26,844 nt of DNA from assembly GCA_028717985.1 (NCBI GenBank), contig JAQUMS010000001.1:1-26844 (forward strand). Direction: 5' to 3'. The translations under genes were made by a program, and so were the position numbers. Positions 3,301 through 21,300 of the stretch are shown piece after piece. The notes under the pieces are model-generated. The model did no database searches and was not told where the DNA came from. It worked only from the letters and a program-made list of their open reading frames with translations. How positions within the stretch are numbered: position 1 is the first letter of the stretch; the number at the start of each line of letters is the position of its first letter. This DNA is from Candidatus Omnitrophota bacterium (GTDB lineage: Bacteria; Omnitrophota; Gorgyraeia; Gygaellales; Profunditerraquicolaceae).

Positions 3301-6300
3301 AACCCTGTTTGAATTTCCTGTCCCATTCTCTTTTAAGATTCCTGTCAAACTCACTTTCATCTCCTCCGTCATTTTCCCTGTTTTGAGCAATAATGCCTCC
3401 TTGAGGCATGAAACCAGAAGCAGAAAATGCGGCGCCTTTTTCCGGCGCTAAAGGATACTGTATGCCCACGGCAGAAATACCGGCAATTTCTTCCAGCCGG
3501 GCCAACACGGAAGGCACCGAGTAAAGTTCATCAGTATTGAAAATTTTCCCTTCCGCTTTACGATAATTACGGGTATACCCGATAAGCAATTCAACGGTTT
3601 TCGGCGTCACCACCCATTCTTCATCAAAAACATATCCCCTTTTCGCTAACGCGCGGTGTATCGCGCCGAGCATATGGCTGCCAAAACCCGTCACGGTTTT
3701 TAATTGCGGCTGTTTAAGCTGATCTTTAATAATCCGTGCCAACACGTCGCTGTTGACTTCGCCTATCATAAAAAGCTGAAGCACCCGCTTCAATACATCA
3801 TCATTTTCCCGAAGATATTCAAAAATATCGGCATATTCCTGATCTCTCACGCTTAACGACTGTTTCCACTTTTCAGAAACATCCCCTGATTGGATTTCCA
3901 GGAATACCGCCATAATGGGATTATGCGTAATTTCATTGATGTTAAAATTTGATTTTTGCACTTTGATGATGGAAACGGCATTTCTAATCATAACGGCAAA
4001 CAAATAATCCTCTTTCATCAGATCTTGCAGCACGGCATATTGTTTTTCGGATACCACAGCCCTGGTTTCAGCATACACAGAATGGTACGGAAGATTTTCA
4101 TCAAGAGCTCTCAGCACATACCGATACGGGCCTACAATGCCGCTCGCCTGTGCAAGAGTTAATGATGATTTGTGAGCAATAATATCCTTGGCTTTATTAA
4201 GGATAATGAGCCTCTTATCCCAGAAGCCTATACCAAGAGCGGAATCAGCCTGAACGATCAATTCTTTAAGCTCGTCATTCTTTTTAACTTCGATCAATAG
4301 AGCTTCATACTCGGCGCTTGTCATTAAATTTTGCGCTTCGATATCCAAACCGCGATACGATACGTTATCAGCTAAACCTTCGAATATATATATATACCTG
4401 CCAAACAATTTTCGTGCAGACCAAAAATCTATTCTTTTGTCGAGCGCTAAAACTAAAGATGCTTTTTTGATTAACGATCCCGTGATATCGCGTTGATGAA
4501 TATAAATATTTCGCATAGCGTTGTTCACGATCTTGGTAAACTCAATATCCCGCTTTTTGTTCCCCAGAATATTTTCATATTCATCCTGGCTGATATTATC
4601 CCAGGCACAATGGTCTAATTCCTGATACGCCAGGGACCGGGAAAGTCCGCGTAAAACAAAATACGTATTCCCGATCAATTTGACGGCATCTTCCGGAGAC
4701 ATATTCGCGTTCTTTTTCGCGGCCAATACCTGGGCCCTCCCCATTAATATCTTTCTCCAGCCGTTCTTGGCAATAACCATCTGGTCGGCATGTATAATAT
4801 AATCAGCAAACATTTCATCCCGTTTCATTTCACCGAGCAAAAATTCATATGACGCTTTTACAAGGATTTTCTGCCTGCCCACAGGAGATATTTCAAACTG
4901 CTGGGCATGCGCCAGAGAATGAATAATAAGATAATTGTGGTTAATTTTAGCCTTAGCCTGAGTTATGCCCACTATTTCTTCGTCATTCACAATTTTGCGG
5001 GCACTGGCTAAAATTTTATTTTTGATGCCTTCCATCCTTATATTTATAGCCTTGCCGGAGGCGCGGACTATTTTTCTTCCGAAACCGGCGTCATCTACTA
5101 TCTCCCGGGCAAGATAATAATATATCCCTGCGGACAGTTGGCGCCGCGCGTAATCGCTTAGGGAAGAATACGGCATGCCTTCCGCTAAAATCCTCATTAC
5201 CTCAAAATGATACCCGATCAAACCTTCAGCCAACGCCCTGCTGATCTTACCTTCCTGTAAAAGCAGTAAATCCGCCTTGTCCTCCAAAACCTGTTTGTAA
5301 TATTCCGGAGTCACATCGATACCGGAGATACTTCCAGTTACCGCGCTCCTGAAAACAGGATTTCCAGTTAATGTTTCAACTATTTCATTATACGTATGGA
5401 ATGAAACCATTTCTAAACCGTTGCTGTGTAATTCCACGTATTTCAAGCCGCGGGCCAAGCCGAGTAAAACATAGGCATAATTGCCGATAAGTTTAAGACT
5501 ATCTTTAAGAATCAACTTCCCGTTTTCCGAGTCCGCCAATATCTTTGCTCTTTCCCAAACAGACTCGTGTTTAACCTTATCAGCCAAAACCATAGTGTCA
5601 GCTTCTGTTATAACCATTCCGAAAAGTTTATCGTTTACCATCTCGTCCTGCAAATACTCATAGGAATCCTCAGCTATGGTATTACGAAAATCTTCGCGCA
5701 AAGAAGAATACGGAAGGGAAACCGCAAGGGCATGTATAATATAATAGTATCTGCCGACGATATCCCGGGCCTCAAGAATATTCATCACCTCGCCTTTTGC
5801 CTTGATAGCGAGAGCTTTATCCGAAAAGGTTTTCTTTATTTGTAAAATCTTTATATTAACAATCTTGTGGGAGGCGGTTCTAATTGTTTTCTTAAAATGC
5901 GCATCAACGCCCATCAGGCTCAAAAGATATTCATAATTCTCCATTGCGATTTTTCTCTGGGCGCCTTTCTGAAGGCTGTCATACGCTGTACCGTTAGCCA
6001 GCGCCATAATAATATTCAACTGGTATCTGGAAATTAACTTCACGGCTTCCACTTCGCTCACCGGCGCGCGTAAAGCCCCAAGAATATCCGCTTTTTTGAG
6101 CAAAGTATCTTTAATATTCATCACCATTTTCTTGCGTGTTACAAGTATTTCATTCCCGGATTGGTTTTTGATACCGGAAGTAATAACGGTATTTTTATCA
6201 GCTATTCCACCGTCAAAAAACCGTTCGGGGCTTTCAAGGTCAACTTCGCATTTAAATCCGGATTGGGCAGGTTCACAGCTAAACATCCTGTAATATTGGA

Positions 6301-9300: not shown

Positions 9301-12300
9301 TCGGATTGGGAAGTGATCCGTAATCAACCGTGTACAAATTGCCAAAACTATCCCTTGAATGCAAATACCAGGGAGCAACATAAATGCTATCCGCTCCTAA
9401 TTCAAACATAGCGTTTCCATGATACAATTCAACCCGGCCCAGGCCGCCGGCCATAGGGGAAATTTCCGCTGTTAAATGGTAAATACTTCTCCCTGTCAGT
9501 TCATACGCCTGCATTTTCAACCAATCCTGCACAGCACGTTCATAATCAAGATTTAAAGCAATTGCATCTTCTAACGCGGAGTTTCTCGGACCGCTTAAAA
9601 TCCAATCAGCCATAGTTTTACGGGATGATTCATCAAAAAACATTATTGCCCGGAGAATCACGTGATTTACCTCAACCGGATATCTGCCCCACAAAGCGGT
9701 AACTTTAGCGTATTCCGCGATCACATTAAGAAATTCTTCTTTGCCATGAATAAACCCTTCAGCAAGATCAACATTGATATCTTCCACGTTTCTGGACCAT
9801 ACCGCGTATAACCGGGCATTAAGATCAACGGTAACTTTATCTTCTTCAACGCTAAAATCTTTCCGGTTGCCGCTTTTTGCATTAACAATCAAACCTCTGC
9901 GGCGCAGGCCGTTCAACAAAGAAATCACGTGATCTCTATCCCAGGTAAAACCATGTGCTTCAAAAACATCTTTGGTTTTCTTTAAAATCCTATTTACGGT
10001 AATCTGGCGTGACGATCTTTCATTTAATTCCGAGATTGCCCATACCACCATAAAAGATTTAACCCATTCCGGATCATGAATACCGCGAATAGATTGTTTA
10101 TCCGGGAATGGCCAGGGGATTTCATAACTTCTCTGTCCCGCTTCCGTTCCCGTTGAATAGGCATTCGCAGGAGATATTACATTCCCATTAAGATATCCCG
10201 GATACGTTTCAATACCTCCATCAGACTGCTTCCTCTGCATGATATCTTTGATACGTTCCAAAAATTCATCGTAATCAGCTAAACCCAAATATTGTTTCCC
10301 ATCTATATGAACAACAGAAACGCCCGCTATCTTTAATATTACAGAAATATCGGGAAGAATAACTTCTTCATCCCCCAACGCAACGCGTGTTTGATATTCC
10401 TTAGCTTCTTTTTGAGTAAAATAGAACAAGGTTAATTTTTTATGGTCATATTTAATAAAGAATGTTTTAGGCCTCATCCCGGCTTCTATTTCCATTTCTT
10501 TTAAGACTTTCTGATCAGGTTGAACTGCCGTTATAATGATCCCGCCTTTGCCTTTTCCATTATAAATTTCTTCAAGAGAAGACCCTTCCAGTTGAGATCT
10601 GGAATCTTCGGCCGTTATACCGTTAGCCATCTGGTGGTTAAATCTTTTAAGATTTTCAATTCTTTTCCAGGTAGCAGGAGTGGAAGGAATACGCATTGTC
10701 CTCACAACTGGCTTTTCCCCCCCGTCTCTATAATTTATATCTTTTACTATCTTACTATTAACAAAATTGTCCTTCCCCATTCTGTCCTCAAAAAATTCAG
10801 GGCTATTTTTGTCTCCTAGTTGTAAAAAATCATTTAAATTATTTTCAATATCCAACAAAATCTTATTAATTAATAACAGCTTTTCAGTTTCTAAATTTAA
10901 TTTTGAAATACTCTTTAGAGTAATATATTTATTTATTAAAAAATTTATTTTCAATAGCCTTTCAATATCGTTTTTATTGAATTTTGCTTCGGGGAATCTT
11001 TTTTTATACATATATCGAATCCATTCTGATTTAGCTCGTGCGATAAAAGACAAAGTTGATTCACGTATAATACCAAGTTTACGATCTTCATAAATTAAAC
11101 TTATAGATTTCAATTCTGTAGTAAATATTTTCTTAAAATATGCATCTGAATTATTAATTTGCTGCTGTATACCCGCAGCAATACTTCCGTCAAATATTCC
11201 ATCCCATTCATCTAATTCTTTTTCTTCTCTCTGAGAAAGAGTATAATATCTTTCCACTTCAGCAGGCATCTGTCCGTACACTAATTCCCCTATTTCTGCA
11301 CCCCTTATAAAGGTACGAGCAATAATCTCCCTCCCAAACTCGTGTCCTGGGACAAAAGAGCGGAACCAACAAGAATGAAGACTTATAATATCTTTTTCGA
11401 TTTCGACATCAGCTTTGCCCAAAATTACATTTTTTGAAAAATAATATACTTGGGCTGAAGATAATTTTTCATCATAAAATTTCCACGCTTCAAATATCTG
11501 ATGACTTTCAGGAAACTCCCCATAATTACTAAACATTGGCAATAAACCTGTTTCCTCCAGAAAACCATACAAGATTCCTCGTGTTTCTTTAATGTCCTCT
11601 TTTCCTTCCCCACCGTCTTCTCCAGAGAAATCTTTTACTATTTCATGCAAGATACGAATCATACTTTCTTCTTTATACGCATATTTTCCGTTTATCTCGG
11701 AAAGCTTCACATCGGATACTTTGACAAAATACGATTTAATTCCTTTTCGTGCTAATTCCTCCTTAAGAGTATCCTTATTAAATTCCGCGGGATCTTCGGG
11801 AACAATTTTACTGTATTTTAATTCTCCAATCGCGATCCGTTTTTGGATTTCCGGTTGCTCCAAAATTTTCCTCTGTTCTTCTTTCAGCGCTTGAAACTTC
11901 CAATACGTTGCGGCATCAATCTCCTGAGGATCAAACAGAACTATATAATCACAGATATCCTTAAATTTAAAACTTTTGAAGGAAGTATTCATCCGAATGG
12001 AGCGTTCAATCAACTCTATCTGTTGTATTACAGAAAGACCTTTACTTTCCGTATCCTGCATTATTTTAAACATAAAAATTCTGGGGATATCTTTTCTGGC
12101 TGCCATTTCTTGAGGGATGCCTTCCGTCATCAAATTCGGCAGTAAAGATGTCACAAAACTACAATCGCCAAAAATAATCGCCTGTTTCGTTGAACGTATA
12201 CCTTCAATAGCTTCGAGATTCGCATATGAATATTCACCGGATTTCCGAAACGCATATGTCCTTATTTTTCCCTGTTGTACTCCTACTGCTTTCATTTCAA

Positions 12301-15300
12301 CATTCCTAAAAATAACTTTTTCTATTGGAGTCAAATGATAATCTTTAGCGTCGGATATATTGGTTTGTTCTTCTACCATACGGCTTTTAAATTCAATAAA
12401 AGAATGATTAATTTTAAGAAAAAACCAAGAGGTATTTGTTGGTAAAACATAATCCTGGTTCCGATATCGTATAAAAGTTTTACCTTCGTCTCCTTTATCC
12501 TCACTAATTGTAAATTTTTCACCGTTACATCTTAAAATAACACTGCCATTCTTATTAACGGTTAATTTTATTTTCTTTCCGCCAAGGGTAAAAGAAACTC
12601 CTTTTCTGCTAATCAAATGAAATTTATCTGTTTTTAATGGTGTGGTCCTAAAGAAAATTTTTCGTTCTTTCACATTTTTGCCATCTTCTATTCTCTCCAC
12701 ATTTATTACAATCCCCTCTACTTTCGTGTAATAAAAATTCCCGTTCGCCTTGCCGATAACCATAACTTCATCATTAATTTTAACTCCCATTCCCTGCAAA
12801 ATAGCCGCCATGGAAGACTGGTCAAAAGAACATGGCACGGCCAAACCATTGATAGCGCCTACCATTTCATAGACGCCCGGATATACTCTTCGTTCATTAC
12901 TAATATGTTGATTGCCCTTTTTCAATTCTCCGGTCAAATATCTGCTCATGACGTAAAAAAGATTTTGCCAGCTTGCTCTATTAACCCCAAAACTCGCCCC
13001 ATTCAAACTCTCGGTTATAATACCGGGAGCAACCCATTCCCGATCGATTCTCCGGGCAACAGAAAACATATTAGCGCAAAAGAAGTTCCAGTCTACAGGA
13101 AGATTATCACGAAAACGGAATGTAATATCTTTGATGTTTTCAAAAATCTGTTCCTCAACCGACTTTCCTGTAATCCTTTTCAATGTCAACAATTCTATTT
13201 TAGAATCACTCAAAGTAAATATGCTCGGGAAAACGCCAATATCTCCGGTCGCTAACGGATATTTATCCCATCCTGGAACATTCAATAATGAATCTTCCAG
13301 CTTTCGTATGTGGCCACCGTCATCAGAAACCCCATCTATCGCAAGAACAATTAATCTTTTATAATTCCTGTATTTATCGCCTGCTTTTTTCATAAAATAA
13401 TTAACTAACGATTTTAAAAAAGAAGTGGTTCTAATCCCTGCGCCTCCAATCCAAATGTACTCGATTGGAGGGGCACGCGCAAGTTTTGTAAAATTAAGGT
13501 TTGAATAAAGAGATTTTGAGTCTTTAATTTCAAGGATACCAACAATTCCCGCTACAATTTCATCTAAGAATCTTCCGGTGTGATCGGCTTCCACTTTAAG
13601 TATTTGCAGTACTTCATCGGCATCTTTCTGATATAATCTTTCAAATAAAACAAGATTCTGTTTATAATCTTCCTTACGGCTCATACCTAAGCCGCCGTCG
13701 TTTTGACTGGGGGCGGTTATTTCAGATTCAGATATTCTTATCAATGCTTCCAGTTCTTTAATCCCGAATAATCTCTCTCCTCTATGTTCTCTGGCGTATT
13801 CAACCGCACCTTTAAGCACCAATCCTGTCCCCACTTCATTCCCACCTACATAATTTTTATGCACAATATCCATGACATCTTTCTTTCCCTTAGACGTCAC
13901 ACTCACGCTTCTCTCAAATCCCATCTCCTCATACGCCGGCCAATCGTTCCCACCCTTCTTTTCGTCATCTCCCAGGTATATCGCATCCAGTTCTTCTTGT
14001 TCTTCTGCTTCCTCATTTAACGCGTTCAAACGGTATCCTGTATATTCCTTAATATTCCCCTCTTTATCAAACACATTCAAACTCGCCGCTCCATTGGCTA
14101 CAACTATAAACCGGTTCCGAATCTCTACCGGCAATGCATCTTCTGCTAATATCCTTTGTAATGTCAATCCTAAATCATTTCCCGAGATCAACATATATAC
14201 CCCGCCTGCATTCAAGTATTCTATTAACGCCCTGTATGCCGCGCTTTTCTTCAATATCGGGTTCTCTGTTGCAGTCGGTTTTCCATATAACGTTCCATCT
14301 CCATCTGACATCACGATTGTCATAGTCTTCCTTGCGTCTATTACGATTCCCGCTTCATATCCTGCCACTTCAAGGATTTCTACCAGATGGCTTCGTACGT
14401 ATCTGATCGGTAATGCTTTATCTACTCCGGCGATATTTGCTTCCACTGTCATGAATCCGCCCATCTTCAACGACATCTTCTCCGCCCCAGGCAATCTCCT
14501 AAATTCTTTCATTGTATCTTCTCGATAATTCAACGGTATCCCGATTATCGCTACCTGCGCTGCTTCTCCACTTGATTCATTCCTGCCTCTTACTTCTATA
14601 CGCGGAATACTACTACTATCGCGCTTTAATAAGGTTTCTGTGCTGTATTTTGCCGGTTCTTTTCCATATTCTTCTACTGCTTCCCACAACCCCTGCACTT
14701 TCGATAGGTCAGCATACGCGGATTTTCCGCCAGTACTCAGTTTCTCTAAGAATTTACGAATCTGCCTCCCTCCTTCTTCTACAAGCATCTCGGTCAATTC
14801 TTGACTTAATAAAGTACTGATTATATTATATTTTTGTTTAAGATTGAAAAATGTTCCTATAATATCATGATCATAAACATTAACACTAGCACAAAAATGT
14901 TCTAAATAAAGGTTGTCAACCAACAATAAAACCGACTGCTTTAAGGGCCTAAATTCTTCTATTTTTTCATATAATATTTTATGTTCCTCTTCTGTTAAAA
15001 GTTCTTTAACATAGAATAAAGTCATATGGTAAAGTACGGGATTAAATTGATTAAATTCCAAAAAAGACTCTTTCACACCCTTATTTATTGAATCGAATAT
15101 TTTATAGTCAGAAACGCCATCTGGATAAAATTCCAAGATAATAATGCCCCCTTTAAATGCTCCGATTTTTATCCCTGACAATCTTAAAGAACCAGGAAAT
15201 GAATCTTCTACTTTGTTTCTTAATAATAAAATAACATCATGATTATTAGGTGTTGCATTATTAATTACTCCGAGTGTAATATGTAAATCATGCTCTTTAA

Positions 15301-18300
15301 CAAAAATCATCTTTTTCTGTAATGATTCCGGCAATACCCCATATAATCCTTGCTGTATACTTAATATCTTTTTGGCATTTTCATCGTCAGGCCTTATAAT
15401 TGTTGATAAACCTTCTAATGGCAACGGATTATTATCTTTATCAATACAAACTGCAATCCCCAAATCTTTTCTCGTCTTTGCTACTGCTGCTCTACTAACT
15501 TTATAAACTTGCTTATACGCATCCTTATATTTTTGTTCAAGAGATGACTTATCATCTTTATTCTTTATTGTATTATTTTTTCTTTCTCCGCCGTCATTTT
15601 CAATTTTAGAGGGTTCATGTTCAACCCTGATCTTCTCAATAACCCCAACCAGATTCTCATTCTCATACAATGGACTCTGCGTCTCAATTCCTGTAACCTT
15701 GCTCTCATCTATCCTGACTATCTCTATTCCTCTCGCCTGAAGATCCGCCTCTTCTCCCTCTCCAAATAACGGCTGTCCTCCCTTTACATGCTTGCTAACC
15801 TGCGCGCTTCCCTGCAATACCAGCTTCGCGTCTTTCCCTTTAATCTTTACTTCCCCTAATTTTACTTTCGCGTCTTCTGATAATTCAGGCGCTATCACAT
15901 GCGAAATTATCTCTTCTATCTTTACTTCCCTTCCCAATACTTTGCTTATATGCCACGTTATCGCCTCAAGCTGTTTATTCAACGTCAATTGCTCGCTTAT
16001 ATTCAACTCATATTCTTCTTCTTCCTTTATATCCTTACTTTCAACTACCTTACCTTCTTTCTCTATCCTTACATCCTTTGATGTTTCCAAATCTGCTTTC
16101 ATCTTAGCTATATATACTACAGGCACTCCTAATCTTCTCCTGTTTACCAATTCTTCCGCTACTTCCTTATATAACAATACAGGCATCAATGATGTCCATA
16201 AGGACCCGTTCCCCATCACGATTGCTTTCGCCCTGCTCAACGCTTCAACCGCTTGCCTGCTCGCTTTTGGATAATTCTCCGAATTTATATCCAGTTCTAT
16301 AAAATTATTCGCTTCTTTACCTATATCTACCCGGTGCGTAAAGTATTCTTCCCTTATAAATTCTTTATGCGCCTTATCCGTCATGATCGTCTGCGCAGCT
16401 ACTAATCCACCATTCTCATATTTTCCTACCAGCGCACTATGTTCATAATCGTAACTTACGGGGATAAACTGCGTTTCTCCCAATGCCATCAGTTTATCAA
16501 GATTCGGGAATCCTACCGCTTGGCTGTCTTTTCCTCCACTCAGTAATCCCATGTCGTACGCCGCTCCCATCAACAACAAATTCGCGCTCGACATCTTCTT
16601 TAACGGTATGATACCTTGTCCTACTAATTCACGGTCTACCAACTCTCCCAGATTTAATACGCTGGATAAAAATATAAGATAATCTGTTGATTTTTCAAAT
16701 TCTTCGGATGGATTCTTTAATATCTTCCTGATGAGGCTCTTGATCTCTTCTTTTTGGGTGGGTTCTTCTATTGCAGTCAATACTTCACTTAATCTCTTTT
16801 CCCACACAGGATACAACTTCTCTCCCGTTATTCGCCCTTTAGTCGTTACGTATTCCGGCATTTTATCCGCGTCTGATTCACTCCAGAATAACGTGAATAT
16901 TTTGAAGTTATCGTTGCTTAAAAATATCGCCAGCCCTGACGCGTCTCCCGGAGGGATAAAATACATCCCCAGATTCTTGAACAGGCTCGCCATGATTTCC
17001 CAGCTCGCTCCTCCGTCATCTGATGATGATATTATACATGCTATCTTCCTCAATCCTTTGGCTATCAGCCTCTGTAAAAACGTTGTGGTCGCTTTCCCGC
17101 CGCCACCAAGGTATACTAAGTCTAATAACCCTTTCTTTTCCGGCGGACCTCTCCCTTCATACTGCTCTAAGATTGATTCCTTATATTTCTGGTAATACCC
17201 ATCCTGAAAATATCCTGCCAATATTCTCCCAACGCTTAATCCCGTGTTCTTCTTCACATCCCATACCGCTTCTTCCAACTGCCGGTTATTCCTCTTCAAA
17301 TTGTCTTTATACACCGATTCCAGAAAACCCAATGTCCTCGCCGCACGCGCATCTATCCCTGCATAGAATTTCATGAATTCTATTCCCTCTCTGCCTCCGT
17401 ATATTTTATCTGCTCCTGCAAAATACTCTTCCGCTGTCTTTGATACCTCATAAATATTTTTCATCTCTTCCAACGCTTCGTATAACTCTTCACCTCTCTT
17501 CATCCCTATCCCAAGCTGGTATAAATCTATCCAACTGGCACGGTTTAGATAATTTAAATTGAACTGCCGGTATACTTCCGACAATACTTCCATCCGTTCC
17601 GCAAACGTCAATGACCTGTTTACTCTCTTTACGTTCTGCCTCTTCAGATATGTCTCTGCCGCGTTTAAACAATAGTCTCCTGCTTCCCTCAACTCTACAA
17701 ACGTCTTCCCTTTGGACATACCATCCAGAAAATAATACACCACTCCCAATCCAAACCCGATATGCTTAAATCCTTCTACCTCATAATTTTCATCCGTCTT
17801 CTCTACGATATCATTTATATATCTTCTTACCCCTTCAACATTCTTAAACGGCAAATCTTCTGAATACACCTGCAGATTCCCGAATAATAACGCATCTTTC
17901 CCTTCTATCTCTCTGCTTAATAAGTAATCCCTTAACGCATGGTCTTTCCCTGTATGTCTCTTACGGATATCTATTGATGTAATGCCCGACTCCCTCACTG
18001 TGTATTCTTCCCAGAACAATGAATGGTATTTCTTCAACAATTCTATCGTCCCTCTGCAACATTCTTCTCGCGGCGACATCTCTCCTTCTTCTATATTAAC
18101 TATCTCCAGCTTCTTCGACGGCAGATGGATTATACTCACGCTATACACTCTTCCTTTGGCATCACGATGCAGGATCACTTCCGGCTTCTTGAACGGATAG
18201 TTCGGGTATTTGTTCCTCATCAAGCTCTTGTTCCCTTCATACTCCGCCCAGAATCGATTCGCCTGTTCCTTTAATACGCTTTCTATTACTTCTACCTGTT

Positions 18301-21300
18301 TCTCCGGAATATAATTCGAATTGTTGTAATCGTTCTCTGTCAACGGTATTCCGTATTCATTGTATTCTACCTTAAATGTCCCAGCCGACGCGTATACTGC
18401 CAGGTTCTTTCTTACGTCATACGGCAGGTATTTTACTATTCTCGTCGCTAATCCTTTTTCTCCCGTATGATCATCATCGTAATACCGTAAGTTACTGATC
18501 AACACGATCTTCTGCCCTTTCCTCAGCAGTTCCACCAACGGCTCCCGCACAAAGCTTTCTTTTAATGTCCCTTTACGGAATTTGTCATACGGCAAAATTA
18601 CTCCATCCGGACCTCCCAATACTATTACTTCCGGATTCCCGCTCCTTTCGTAGCCGCCGTCGCTAGTCATCCACGCTTTCAGCATATCCAGCGCAGGTTC
18701 AAGGATCGCTTTCACCTCGTCCAAATCCTTTGCGTCCCTTACTTCGAATATAATTGTCGGCGATCCGCCCAACGCCATCCTGATCACGTTGGCTATCCCA
18801 TACACATACGTCGCATCATCTACCGTGATATTCTCTTCTACCATCTGTGTCCCTAATCCTTTACCGTATGTATTGGTATATACTATCGCTATATTGAACA
18901 CATTCTCAGGATGCGACATGATCGCTTCTATACCCGTATGCGCCACTCCAGGCAACCCTAATAACGGACATGTGATCCCTTTCCCTGCGAACCGCTCTAC
19001 TATTCCTCGTGCAATCGCTTTGATCTTCGGGTTCTCCGCGTCCACTTCCATGAACGTCAACGGCATATACATCATTTTCTCTTTTCTGCCTGTGAACATC
19101 TTGATCAGATACATCCCCAACGCTTCTGCCGCGCTGTAGCCTTCTGTCTCTATCTCTTCTCCCTTTTCTACCGCGACTGATATCTTCATCTTATCCTGAT
19201 CTTGAGTCTCTATCACTACCTGCTGATTCAATGTTACAGGTTTATTATCTGTCTTTCTCATCGCATCCATAAACGATTTCCCAAACGCAGCTTCCATATC
19301 CGATATCTTGCTTCCGCCCGCTTCTGCAAAATCGCTCTTGAACACTTCTTCTGCTATCGCGCTCGTTAATACTCTCACCACTCTCGATTCTGCAATCATT
19401 AATTTTGTTCCCACCTCAACTATCGCTTCCATGAATGTCCTGAAATCTTCACCTTCCGCCTCTTCATATCCACGCCGTATAATTCGTTTTGTTTTATCTT
19501 TCTTATCCACATCTATGCTCTTTTCAGATTTTATACGGTTCTCGGTTTCTTTCGCCTGTATTTTGGATATAACGTCTTCAAAGGTTACACGGATATCTTT
19601 ATCTCCGCGCGCTTTCTTGGCTTTCTCTATCTCAAACATCGCCGCAGTGATCTCTCTGACGAATTTTACCGCGGGATTCGAATTCGCGTCCTGTTTCGTC
19701 AAATAGGTAAAGTACACTACCATATCCTGTAATAACGAGCTTGTCCTTCCGATGACTTCCAAATTATTCCTTAAATCTTCCTTTATATCTAATGATACTA
19801 TGATTACCGGGATCCCTCTTCTTTCAAGGCTTTCCGCATATTCGTATGCTTGTCTGTAATTACCATTGTTCCGGTTCAATAAGAAGATCGGCAACTGGGT
19901 ATTCCCTGCCTGCTCAAACACTGTTTCATATAAGGTACGGTCTGATTCCAAGCCATATCCTACCAACACGTTGTTATTCGTTCCGCCGGCAATGTTCTTG
20001 TTTGCCCCTTCGTTATTTAACTGCAGGAATTCTTTGGCTATGAATCTTAAATCATTGTCGTAGATTATCGCGAACCGGTTATGCCCATTCATTCTCTGCC
20101 TGAACAGCATTTCCGCAAGTTTGATTCCACCACTTTTTAAACCATTGCTATACGCTAATTCCTCATTGGCTCCTGCCATGGTCGAAACGTAGTATTCCAA
20201 ATATTTTCTCGCTTCTTCCACGTCTTTTAATCCGGCTACTAACCCTAAGTACAACGGGATATACACCATCAGGGTTTTCCTGTTCATCTGTCTGCCGCCG
20301 ATATCCCCGGGTATATCGTCTATAACCAATATTCTCGCGTCTGCATCTTTCATTAATTCTTTGCCTGCTTCATTTAATTTTCCGCTGTTGGCTGCTACAA
20401 TTCTCTGTTTAAACCGGTCTTTGGTCGCGTTGAAGAAATCCACTGTTTCTTTCGTGCTCCCGCTTCGGGACATTTCGAATATTAATGTGTTCTTGTTATT
20501 CGCTCCAGCAGGAATGATCTTCAAATGCGCCGGGTTATTCACTACCACCCATTTCACATGGATACCTCTCATCTCAAAGTATTTGTTCAATGCCCACGCC
20601 AGCTGATGTGTGTACATTTCATTCGCGCCAATCCCTGATGTGAACACGTATTCGATTCTTCCTAAGTCTACTGTCGCAAAATACGCGTCTAACCGCTCAA
20701 TTAATTCTTTCAGATCAGGATATTTACTTGCTCCTTTGATTGCGGTTAATCCAAGGAACCTGCCTGTGAAATCGTTCATGTTATCTCTGAACACAAACGA
20801 TACCATACCTGCTGTTTCTCTCATGAATCTCAAATACTCTGTTATTGCCCCGCCTTCTACACTGCTTTCGCCGCCTTCTATTCCATATCCTTCCGCTTGT
20901 ATATCCACGCTGATCTTTTTATCCGCGAATTCGCCTTTTCCGTATTCTTTTACCTGTCTTAGTTTGTAATCTTCTACCACTGGCCGGAAGAACTTCACTC
21001 CCTCTAATATCTCTGCCGCTTCGTCTGTTCCCAATCCTGCCGCTTCTGCCATTCCTTTTACAAACGCCACGCTGTCTATGGATGTCCTTAAGATCTGTAC
21101 CACTCTCTTGTAATCGCTGATTCCAAGCATCCTCATTACATAATCCAGTTCCACTAAGAATCTTCTCGCGTCTAAGCTAAAGGTACCTTGTCCTTCATTC
21201 GCTAAGACTTCCCCGCCGTCTCTATAGCTCTTAGAGTTTGCGTCCTTCGTCCTTCGTCCTTCGTCCTTCGGAGAAAATTCTCCGCCGTCGTTAGTGTTAA

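What the first reader, a model, noticed from the sequence alone, without database searches (positions are those of the whole stretch)
13750..14810. HAD phosphatase with permuted motif order (cap, III, I, II, IV)
Seen: the cap-like segment and GVDKA lie N-terminal to DGDGT, and only about 35 aa separate ANGA from GD..GGND, where the C2 cap normally sits. Known: canonical IIB order is I, II, cap, III, IV. Inference: a circular permutation, or the remnant of a nested double HAD whose outer N-terminal half was replaced by the 2H domain. All catalytic Asp residues are present, so it may be active.
Basis: partly seen in the sequence, partly recalled or inferred. Interest (0 to 1): 0.62.

Follow-up and report, generated by a model that had tools for sequence, protein, structure and literature searches.

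The report
HAD enzyme with relocated cap domain
One module of a giant Omnitrophota protein is a HAD-type phosphatase/mutase whose lid domain and one catalytic lysine are encoded in front of the catalytic core instead of inside it. About a hundred related sequences share this swap and a sister family keeps the normal order, so it is a real and apparently undescribed rewiring of a well-studied enzyme fold.

Summary
On the minus strand (window 13733-14818, aa 4009-4370 of a >8947-aa open frame) the order is C2B-type cap, GVDK (motif III), DGDGT (I), ISGN (II), GDDEKKGGND (IV).

The order is a family trait:
- About 105 cluster representatives share it. Many are stand-alone 350-400-aa proteins that begin at the cap.
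- The Lys and all catalytic Asp residues are nearly invariant.
- AlphaFold2 is confident (pLDDT 94). The core superposes on PMM, alpha-PGM and T6PP with their caps skipped (Z 11-13).
- The N-terminal part folded alone matches almost only HAD-IIB caps.

A sister family of about 28 sequences keeps the canonical order. Profile-profile alignments (E 3e-23 and 9e-27) place the breakpoints after "YRxxAL" and after the helix that follows the Lys. With A = strand 1 to YRxxAL, B = cap-Lys-helix and C = motif IV to the end, A-B-C became B-A-C.

This is therefore a swap of two adjacent segments. It is neither a circular permutation nor an outer half replaced by the 2H domain, which is absent from all 18 other multidomain homologues checked.

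The likely function is Mg-dependent hexose-phosphate transfer. I favour a mutase because four representatives are fused to hexokinase and one gene lies in a glycogen cluster.

The Lys-Asp distance could not be measured.

The parts
13733..14818 (-). Whole rearranged HAD domain (giant-protein aa 4009-4370), equal to the extent of stand-alone homologues
   Evidence: Stand-alone homologues of 350-400 aa cover query residues 20-380. AF2 gives pLDDT 94.3 and pTM 0.91.
14432..14818 (-). Segment B, part 1: C2B-type cap (aa 4009-4137) with N-terminal helices and four strands. Conserved Arg4081, Glu4083, Arg4085, Gln4096, Arg4107, Gly4129, Glu4134
   Evidence: The N-domain model (pLDDT 96.2) was aligned to 48,161 PDB chains. 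Of the best 27 matches, 24 are cap regions of HAD-IIB enzymes, Z 5-7.4. Conservation.
14417..14428 (-). Motif III, GVDK (Lys4142)
   Evidence: Lys in 76 of 77 homologues. It aligns with the GWDK motif III of phosphomannomutases and with the invariant GVDK of the canonical sister family.
14363..14416 (-). Segment B, part 2: helix after the Lys (aa 4143-4160), the counterpart of the canonical helix that normally leads into strand 4 and here leads into strand 1
   Evidence: DSSP helix at query residues 154-171. Seven PDB alignments of the N-domain run on through the Lys and this helix.
14321..14362 (-). New junction B to A: loop GYEAGIVIDARKTM (aa 4161-4174)
   Evidence: hhalign breakpoints. Conserved Y-x-x-G-x-x-I-D-A.
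14015..14320 (-). Segment A (aa 4175-4276): strand 1 with motif I DGDGT (14291-14305), flap, helix, strand 2 with motif II ISGN (14177-14188), helix, strand 3 ANGA (14087-14098), hairpin, helix YRLNAL
   Evidence: It aligns to residues about 14-139 of canonical-order relatives, iE 1e-15 to 1e-23, and by hhalign at E 9e-27. The model core aligns to HAD-IIB cores.
13988..14014 (-). New junction A to C: short acidic, poorly conserved linker EEAEEQEEL (aa 4277-4285), sitting where canonical enzymes have the roughly 140-residue cap-Lys-helix segment
   Evidence: Variable columns in alignments A1 and A2. Lower pLDDT here, 91-92.
13733..13987 (-). Segment C (aa 4286-4370): strand 4 with motif IV GDDEKKGGND (13943-13972), strand 5 and C-terminal helices
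   Evidence: PMM-type motif IV with the same Asp-to-Asp spacing aligns with PMM and alpha-PGM. Asp4300 is invariant.
14843..15586 (-). Upstream 2H-like segment of the same DGG-delimited unit (HITLG and HMTLF). It is not part of the HAD family domain
   Evidence: Two HxT motifs. Language-model neighbours are 2H/LigT clusters, score 0.93. No Pfam hit. Not conserved upstream in other homologues.
13691..13699 (-). DGG junction tripeptide that closes the unit

Best explanation
The region encodes a catalytically complete HAD phosphotransferase related to HAD-IIB (the PMM / alpha-PGM / T6PP neighbourhood) with a rewired chain. The segment that canonical enzymes carry between strand 3 and strand 4 (C2B cap, motif III Lys and the helix after it, here called B) has changed places with the N-terminal half of the core (strand 1 with DxDxT through strand 3 and the YRxxAL helix, called A). 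The canonical order A-B-C has become B-A-C. The helix after the Lys now feeds strand 1. A 9-residue linker joins the YRxxAL helix to strand 4. The cap is held by one connection instead of two. Shown here: the order, its conservation, the fold of both halves, and a canonical-order sister family that fixes the breakpoints. Inferred: chemistry is the usual HAD one. Asp4180 is phosphorylated, Asp4182 acts as acid/base, Ser4220 and Lys4142 hold the phosphoryl group, and Asp4292/4293 and Asp4300 bind Mg2+. The Arg- and Glu-rich cap binds a hexose phosphate. I favour a PMM/alpha-PGM-like mutase (hexose-6-P to hexose-1-P, about 45%) over a sugar-phosphate phosphatase (about 35%).
For: The arrangement is a family trait: 105 representatives, many of them stand-alone and starting at the cap. 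They are annotated only as hypothetical proteins in Omnitrophota and Chlamydiae MAGs. Family profiles match PMMs in three pieces out of order: I/II to PMM residues 5-61, cap end plus Lys to 150-205, and IV to 207-222. In the AF2 model (pLDDT 94.3, pTM 0.91) residues 183-362 superpose on whole HAD-IIB chains with the target's cap skipped. The best is alpha-PGM 4bnd at Z 13.2 with 141 residues at 2.7 A. The N-domain folded alone finds almost only HAD-IIB caps among 48,161 chains. A canonical-order sister family exists. hmmsearch and hhalign show the swap: B to columns 138-278 at E 3e-23, and A to columns 36-139 at E 9e-27. On a tree of segment A one branch (93/97) separates 77 rearranged from 27 canonical sequences. 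No other AFDB or Atlas cluster shares the whole fold. For function: the nearest solved relatives are PMM and alpha-PGM. Hexokinase follows the domain directly in P0005, P0008, P0009 and P0010. One stand-alone gene lies beside glycogen synthase, a GH57 enzyme and glycogen phosphorylase. The window's own protein carries starch-synthase (GT5) and GT1-family domains.
Against: The tools return no coordinates, so the Lys4142-Asp4180 distance and the cap's position over the active site were not measured. They rest on chain geometry, the high pTM and conservation. Both structures are predictions. No biochemical data exist for any member. The function is ambiguous. T6PP and Cof-type phosphatases are almost as close as PMM. 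One homologue is fused to a canonical PGM/PMM (P0003), and canonical phosphohexomutases occur in all five genomes checked, so a mutase would be redundant there. Gene neighbourhoods differ between lineages: NUDIX/GCHY-1, a trp/men operon, or unrelated genes. The window's copy has Leu where 58 of 77 homologues have Arg, at query residue 237.
Confidence: 0.8

Rival explanations
1. Simple circular permutation of a HAD-IIB enzyme (old termini joined, new termini opened before the cap).
For: The cap and motif III do precede motif I.
Against: A circular permutant would read cap-III-IV-I-II. Here motif IV and the C-terminal helices remain last. The helix after the Lys joins strand 1 directly through a 14-residue loop with no room for strands 4 and 5. 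The canonical sister shows that only segments A and B changed places.
Confidence: 0.02
2. Remnant of a nested or double HAD whose outer N-terminal half was replaced by the 2H domain.
For: A 2H-like segment lies upstream in the same DGG-delimited unit. Tandem copies of the domain occur in other giant proteins (P0001, P0002, P0014), so duplication is frequent in this setting.
Against: Dozens of stand-alone homologues begin at the cap, with no upstream domain and no outer motif I. None of 18 other multidomain homologues has a pair of HxT/S motifs upstream; six show a single chance-level match. A partial duplication A-B-A-B-C followed by loss of the first A and the second B is a possible history, but no intermediate was found.
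Confidence: 0.05
3. Canonical topology after all: the true motif III residue lies between motif II and motif IV, and GVDK is an unrelated look-alike in a separate N-terminal domain.
For: Lys4261 and Lys4266 lie in the hairpin after strand 3. A short helix (YRLNAL) precedes strand 4.
Against: No Lys or Arg between motifs II and IV is conserved apart from Arg at query residue 282 (50 of 77), while Lys153 is kept in 76 of 77. The GVDK segment is homologous to the motif III segment of PMM, T6PP and the canonical sister. YRxxAL is also present in the canonical sister, before its cap.
Confidence: 0.04
4. The fold is rearranged as described, but the module is not a hexose-phosphate mutase. It is a phosphomonoesterase acting after a phosphodiesterase or pyrophosphatase, for example on the product of the fused 2H domain or of the NUDIX partner (a nucleotide-sugar or ADP-ribose-derived sugar phosphate).
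For: A NUDIX gene directly follows the stand-alone gene, abutting or overlapping it by one base, in three Omnitrophota loci. A 2H-like segment is fused in the window. A 2H-SAK gene follows a canonical-order relative, and Macro and NUDIX genes lie near another.
Against: The 2H partners show no significant mutual similarity and are not conserved. Fusion to hexokinase would make a phosphatase of hexose-6-P futile.
Confidence: 0.35
5. Assembly or prediction artefact in this metagenome-assembled genome.
For: The contig comes from a 299-contig MAG that is 80% complete.
Against: The same order is seen in more than 100 independent sequences from many samples and at least four phylum labels: Omnitrophota, Chlamydiae, Planctomycetota and Margulisiibacteriota.
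Confidence: 0.01

Closest known systems
Eukaryotic-type phosphomannomutases (PMM1/PMM2, Leishmania and Plasmodium PMM) and the Lactococcus lactis HAD-type alpha-phosphoglucomutase (PDB 4bnd)
   Same: These are the best sequence-profile hits in the PDB and the best structural matches to the core, Z 11-13. The cap end 'GGxxSxE/D...G(V/W)DK' matches. Motif IV 'GDx5-6GND' has the same Asp-to-Asp spacing. The cap is C2B type.
   Different: In PMM and alpha-PGM the cap and Lys lie between strand 3 and strand 4. Here they are N-terminal. The Pfam PMM score is 17 bits against a cut-off of 22.4. Overall Foldseek TM is at most 0.3 because the chains are not collinear. I did not find PMM's flap Arg, 9 residues after the nucleophile as I recall it; that position is a conserved Pro here.
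Uncharacterised canonical-order sister family (P0090, P0098, P0113-P0132 and others; about 28 metagenomic proteins of 325-411 aa)
   Same: All three segments are homologous: A at E 9e-27, B at E 3e-23, and C matched in P0094. The signatures are shared: DxDGT...P.L.ESPA..WL..GG, NGGA, YRxxA, PRIEVR, Q(I/V)A..G(I/V)P, EIN..GVDKAL and G.NE.GT..LL.
   Different: The order is A-B-C (canonical HAD-IIB). Motif IV is GDRPxxNDAP (Asp+6) rather than GDDxxxxGND (Asp+8). On the segment-A tree one branch separates the two groups.
Trehalose-6-phosphate phosphatases and Cof-type HAD-IIB sugar phosphatases (5dxl, 6qj6, 1u02, 3niw, YidA, BT4131)
   Same: The C2B cap fold (top matches of the N-domain) and the Rossmannoid core.
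   Different: Canonical connectivity. Sequence similarity is weaker than to PMM.
Permuted motif orders in DNA amino-methyltransferases (alpha, beta, gamma classes); conceptual analogue, cited from my own knowledge
   Same: A Rossmann-like enzyme family in which conserved motif blocks occur in different linear orders while the 3D active site is kept.
   Different: A different fold and chemistry. Those cases are usually described as circular permutations, whereas this one is a swap of two adjacent segments.

Membership tests
HAD superfamily | Motif I DxDx(T/V) at the end of strand 1 | tested here: met
   DGDGT at aa 4180-4184. Asp 77/77, Asp+2 73/77 and Thr 76/77 in homologues. It aligns with motif I of PMM.
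HAD superfamily | Motif II Ser/Thr at the end of strand 2 | tested here: met
   Ser4220 in ISGN. Ser or Thr in 77/77.
HAD superfamily | Motif III Lys placed next to the nucleophile in the active site | tested here: inconclusive
   Lys4142 is conserved in 76/77 and is homologous to the motif III Lys of PMM and of the canonical sister. Its position in space could not be measured because model coordinates are not returned.
HAD superfamily | Motif IV acidic residues (DD or GDxxxD type) at the end of strand 4 | tested here: met
   GDDEKKGGND at aa 4291-4300. Asp4300 is invariant. It aligns with motif IV of PMM and alpha-PGM.
HAD superfamily | Rossmannoid alpha/beta core fold | tested here: met
   Model residues 183-362 align to HAD cores at Z 9.5-13.2, with 127-163 residues at 2.6-4.5 A.
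HAD subfamily IIB (C2B cap) | Cap with the C2B alpha+beta fold | tested here: met
   The N-domain model was compared with 48,161 chains. Of the best 27 matches, 24 are cap regions of HAD-IIB enzymes, Z 5-7.4.
HAD subfamily IIB (C2B cap) | Cap inserted between strand 3 (after motif II) and motif III | tested here: not met
   The cap is N-terminal to motif I. Only 39 residues lie between ANGA and motif IV.
Pfam PMM (PF03332) / Hydrolase_3 (PF08282) | Score above the curated gathering threshold | tested here: not met
   PMM scores 15.4-17.2 bits against a cut-off of 22.4. Hydrolase_3 gives only weak hits in 11 of 33 homologues. NCBIfam gives nothing relevant.
Circular permutant of HAD-IIB | Order cap-III-IV-(C-terminus joined to N-terminus)-I-II | tested here: not met
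   The observed order is cap-III-I-II-IV.
HAD-type phosphohexomutase (PMM / alpha-PGM function) | Mutase activity dependent on a hexose-1,6-bisphosphate activator | not testable with these tools
   Only indirect evidence: nearest relatives, hexokinase fusions and one glycogen cluster.

The most novel reading that the evidence does not exclude
This family represents a third way of attaching a cap to the HAD core, besides the C1 and C2 insertion sites on which the superfamily's classification rests. A C2B cap together with the motif III helix was moved to the N-terminus by a single swap of adjacent segments. The result is a lid with one hinge and a catalytic Lys supplied from upstream of the nucleophile. 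The enzyme still works, as a HAD-type hexose-phosphate mutase used both alone and as a module next to hexokinase and YvcK/CofD-like domains in giant multi-enzyme proteins.
Probability: 0.45. Interest if true: 0.68.

Novelty: new variant of a known kind. Interest (0 to 1): 0.6.

Why it matters
HAD enzymes are classified, and their substrate specificity is explained, by where the cap is inserted into an otherwise invariant chain order (motifs I, II, III, IV). A natural and conserved family with two large segments in swapped order shows that the fold tolerates a non-cyclic rewiring of its central sheet. The rearranged segments include the one that carries a catalytic residue.

A canonical-order sister family pins the breakpoints to a few residues. 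That makes this a good test case for how such rearrangements arise, for example by partial duplication followed by loss, and for how a single-hinge cap gates catalysis.

There is also a practical lesson. Collinear tools under-call the family: Pfam gives nothing above threshold and Foldseek TM is at most 0.3. All members I could check are annotated as hypothetical.

Functionally, the module may be a missing hexose-phosphate step in the glucan-metabolism assembly lines of Omnitrophota giant proteins.

Tried and rejected
- Pfam and NCBIfam on the unit gave only a sub-threshold PMM hit.
- phmmer of the single sequence against PDB found nothing relevant. Profiles were needed.
- BLASTP against the window's other HAD-like module was not significant.
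- The search for related loci in genome contigs failed twice: no conserved stretch in A1, and no confirmed relative for the single protein.
- The idea that the family replaces a missing canonical phosphoglucomutase is rejected. PF02878 proteins are present in the window's genome and in four genomes that carry the family.
- A conserved 2H partnership is rejected. The 2H-SAK gene next to P0098, the 166-aa gene next to P0090 and the window's 2H-like segment show no significant similarity. A pair of HxT motifs is absent upstream in all 18 other multidomain homologues checked.
- Gene neighbourhood as a single functional clue is rejected because contexts differ between lineages.
- Three literature searches for permuted or circularly permuted HAD enzymes found nothing relevant (papers checked).
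- I could not measure the Lys-Asp distance because structure prediction returns no coordinates and none reach the Python box.
Full report
**Setting**

The 26,844-base window is a complete contig of a 1.63-Mb, 299-contig genome that is 80% complete. It consists of a single minus-strand open frame of 8947 codons, open at both ends. Pfam finds CofD/YvcK-like, DUF218, HEAT, starch-synthase (GT5) and GT1-family domains in it. The tripeptide DGG occurs 20 times, 17 of them at domain borders.

The finding lies in the DGG-delimited unit aa 3753-4384 (window 13691-15586). This unit holds a 2H-like segment followed by the HAD-like domain. Relatives in the same phylum carry open frames of up to 34,487 aa. 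Named homologues come from Omnitrophota MAGs.

GVDKA starts at aa 4139, DGDGT at 4180, ANGA at 4249 and GGND at 4297. Lys4142 precedes Asp4180 by 38 residues, and 39 residues separate ANGA from the GD of motif IV.

**The order is a family trait**

An exhaustive phmmer search found 105 cluster representatives, 50 of them at E below 1e-30.
- Many are stand-alone proteins of 350-400 aa that cover query residues 20-380. They begin at the cap-like part and have nothing upstream.
- Others are modules in proteins of up to 6186 aa.
- Where named, they are 'hypothetical protein' from Omnitrophota or Chlamydiae MAGs, or they are named after a fused domain in Planctomycetota and Margulisiibacteriota MAGs.

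Conservation across 77 aligned members:

| Residue | Kept in |
|---|---|
| GVDK Lys | 76 (1 Arg) |
| Nucleophile Asp | 77 |
| Asp+2 | 73 |
| Thr | 76 |
| Motif II Ser/Thr | 77 |
| Motif IV Asp residues | 73, 64 and 77 |

The cap-like part carries conserved Arg92, Glu94, Arg96, Gln107, Arg118, Gly140 and Glu145 (query numbering). No Lys between motifs II and IV is conserved. The window's copy keeps every one of these residues.

No Pfam or NCBIfam model reaches threshold.

**Non-collinearity with solved HAD enzymes**

Family profiles searched against all PDB sequences hit phosphomannomutases first, then T6PP and the HAD-type alpha-PGM (full-sequence E 2e-4 to 1e-3). The matches always fall in pieces that are out of order:
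- family 183-244 (motifs I and II) to PMM 5-61;
- family 115-168 (cap end plus GVDK) to PMM 150-205 (GWDK);
- family 301-316 (motif IV) to PMM 207-222.

**Predicted structure**

With a 77-sequence alignment AlphaFold2 gives mean pLDDT 94.3 and pTM 0.91. Secondary structure runs as follows:
- N-terminal helices;
- four strands and a helix (residues 92-148);
- Lys153;
- a long helix (154-171);
- a standard five-strand alpha/beta core (186-325) with C-terminal helices.

Foldseek finds only HAD enzymes, but weakly (TM at most 0.31), as expected for a chain that is not collinear with them. VIA-align superposes model residues 183-362 on entire HAD-IIB chains with the target's cap left out. The best is alpha-PGM 4bnd at Z 13.2, with 141 residues at 2.7 A. 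PMMs, T6PPs and ISN1 score Z 11-12.

The N-terminal 166 residues folded alone (pLDDT 96.2) were aligned to 48,161 PDB chains. Of the best 27 matches, 24 are the cap regions of HAD-IIB enzymes, for example T6PP 5dxl 108-187, 3niw 86-194, 4bnd 90-189 and PMM 6i5x 96-202 (Z 5-7.4). Seven alignments continue through the Lys and the following helix.

The N-terminal part is therefore a genuine C2B cap plus the motif III element. Neither the AlphaFold DB cluster library (best TM 0.43/0.46) nor the ESM Atlas contains another cluster with the whole fold. In the Atlas only the family's own Omnitrophota cluster matches, at TM 0.68/0.77.

**A canonical-order sister family fixes the breakpoints**

The weakest two-stretch hits are proteins of 325-411 aa. 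They carry the same signatures in the normal order:
- DMDGT near the N-terminus;
- P.L.ESPA..WL..GG, NGGA, YRxxA;
- cap helices;
- PRIEVR, Q(I/V)A..G(I/V)P, EIN..GVDKAL;
- GDRPxxNDAP.

A further search brought this family to about 28 sequences, all unnamed.

The rearranged family's HMM (Z set to 1e6) matches these sequences as follows:
- positions about 188-288 match their residues about 14-150, iE 1e-15 to 1e-23;
- positions about 8-170 match their residues about 145-298, iE 1e-10 to 5e-4 for all but three members (P0093 0.04, P0100 1.1, P0089 no match).

Profile-profile comparison gives:
- cap+Lys block to canonical columns 138-278, probability 99.5%, E 3e-23;
- motif I-to-YRxxAL block to canonical columns 36-139, probability 99.7%, E 9e-27.

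The two blocks abut in the canonical family and are swapped in ours. Motif IV and the C-terminal part stay last, and P0094 shows all three pieces in canonical order. On a maximum-likelihood tree of the shared block A, a single branch (UFBoot 93, SH-aLRT 97; 91% of bootstrap trees) separates 77 rearranged from 27 canonical sequences. One rearrangement event is therefore sufficient. The tree has no outgroup, so polarity rests on every other HAD having the canonical order.

**What kind of rearrangement**

Define A as strand 1 to YRxxAL, B as cap-Lys-helix, and C as strand 4 to the end.

The alternative, an outer N-terminal half replaced by the 2H domain, is contradicted in two ways. Stand-alone members start at B. 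None of 18 other multidomain homologues has a pair of HxT/S motifs upstream.

A plausible history is partial tandem duplication (A-B-A-B-C) followed by loss of the first A and the second B. This is inference. Tandem copies of the whole domain do occur (P0001, P0002, P0014), but no intermediate was found.

In three dimensions (inferred):
- The helix after the Lys runs antiparallel to the sheet and now enters strand 1 through a conserved 14-residue loop. Canonically it enters the neighbouring strand 4.
- The YRxxAL helix canonically begins the excursion into the cap. Here a 9-residue acidic, variable linker joins it to strand 4.
- Lys4142 sits at the N-terminus of a helix whose C-terminus feeds strand 1, so it should lie near the C-terminal end of that strand, where Asp4180 is.

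I could not verify the last point because no coordinates are available.

**Mechanism and function**

By homology the chemistry is that of HAD phosphotransferases:
- an aspartyl-phosphate forms on Asp4180;
- Asp4182 acts as acid/base;
- Ser4220 and Lys4142 hold the phosphoryl group;
- Asp4292/4293 and Asp4300 bind Mg2+.

A large C2B cap with three conserved Arg and two Glu points to a small anionic sugar substrate.

Evidence for hexose phosphates, and tentatively for a mutase:
- The nearest solved relatives are PMM and alpha-PGM.
- The Asp-to-Asp spacing in motif IV is the PMM one.
- A hexokinase domain follows the module directly in P0005, P0008, P0009 and P0010, often with a CofD/YvcK-like domain in front. 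A CofD-like module also follows it in the window.
- A stand-alone gene lies beside glycogen synthase, a GH57 enzyme and glycogen phosphorylase.

Evidence against a mutase:
- One homologue is fused to a canonical PGM/PMM plus a 6-phosphogluconolactonase-like domain.
- Canonical phosphohexomutases are present in all five genomes tested.
- Other contexts are a directly following NUDIX gene (abutting or overlapping by one base) with GCHY-1 and MoCF_biosynth genes, a trp/men operon, or nothing informative.

My estimate is mutase about 45%, sugar-phosphate phosphatase about 35%, other 20%.

**Novelty**

Three full-text searches found no description of a HAD enzyme with a permuted motif order (with checks). 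All members I could look up are unnamed or hypothetical. The scan's own notes hold no earlier record of this family on other DNA.

I did not test it.

I rate this a new variant of a known kind. The enzyme is clearly a HAD, related to subfamily IIB, but it fails the connectivity criterion that defines cap class C2.

**Limits**

Both structural models are predictions. The key distance was not measured. No biochemistry exists. The direction of the rearrangement rests on parsimony.

Noticed in passing
window 2-26842 (-), DGG sites listed: The DGG punctuation at module borders is peculiar to this protein. Eighteen other multidomain homologues of the HAD module have 0-3 DGG in 546-6186 aa. One canonical-order relative (P0091) starts with MRNDGG immediately before its motif I strand, as if cut from a DGG-punctuated giant protein.
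   Followed up: partly
P0005, P0009, P0001, P0010, P0008, P0037; window 11640-13690 (-): A module order recurs: CofD/YvcK-like, then rearranged HAD, then hexokinase (P0005, P0009). Shorter versions are HAD-hexokinase (P0008, P0010), CofD-HAD (P0001) and HAD-CofD (P0037). In the window a CofD-like module follows the HAD after the DGG.
   Followed up: partly
P0001 1106-1475 and 1499-1858; P0002 315-674 and 743-1132; P0014 723-1022 and 1068-1385: Two rearranged HAD domains lie in tandem within single giant proteins.
   Followed up: no
L002 8001-11134; L003; L008 4751-7878: In Omnitrophota the stand-alone gene is preceded by a small 81-87-aa ORF and directly followed (abutting or overlapping by one base) by a NUDIX gene, then GCHY-1 and a 170-aa MoCF_biosynth protein. 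In L002 a glycogen cluster (GT5/GT4 synthase, DUF4912, GH57, GT35 phosphorylase) lies directly upstream.
   Followed up: partly
L020 2913-12646, L021, L022: In three genomes of one family (same class as the window's genome) the gene sits inside a conserved trpG-trpD-trpC-trpF-[HAD]-ubiE-chorismate-binding-MenD-like string.
   Followed up: partly
window 14843-15586 (-): The upstream 2H-like segment (HITLG, HMTLF) gets no Pfam hit even at E of 10 or less. Its language-model neighbours are 2H-phosphodiesterase and LigT clusters, score 0.93. A 2H-SAK gene follows the canonical-order relative P0098 but shows no significant similarity to it.
   Followed up: partly
window 25700-26716 (-) and 17640-18650 (-): The two other HAD-like modules of the giant protein have the canonical order but read LGGPDGV where motif I should be, so the nucleophile Asp is missing. 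Hydrolase_3 matches only weakly, 17 bits.
   Followed up: no
ESM Atlas rows 2, 3 and 5: Three clusters of Saccharimonadota hypothetical proteins (291-325 aa) align with the model over residues 17-358 at TM 0.32-0.44. They could be another HAD group with an N-terminal cap-like part. Their sequences were not retrievable.
   Followed up: no
G252:C2, G270:C8, G119:C2, G276:C58: Genomes of the same phylum carry open frames of 16,749 to 34,487 aa that contain partial matches to the HAD core.
   Followed up: no
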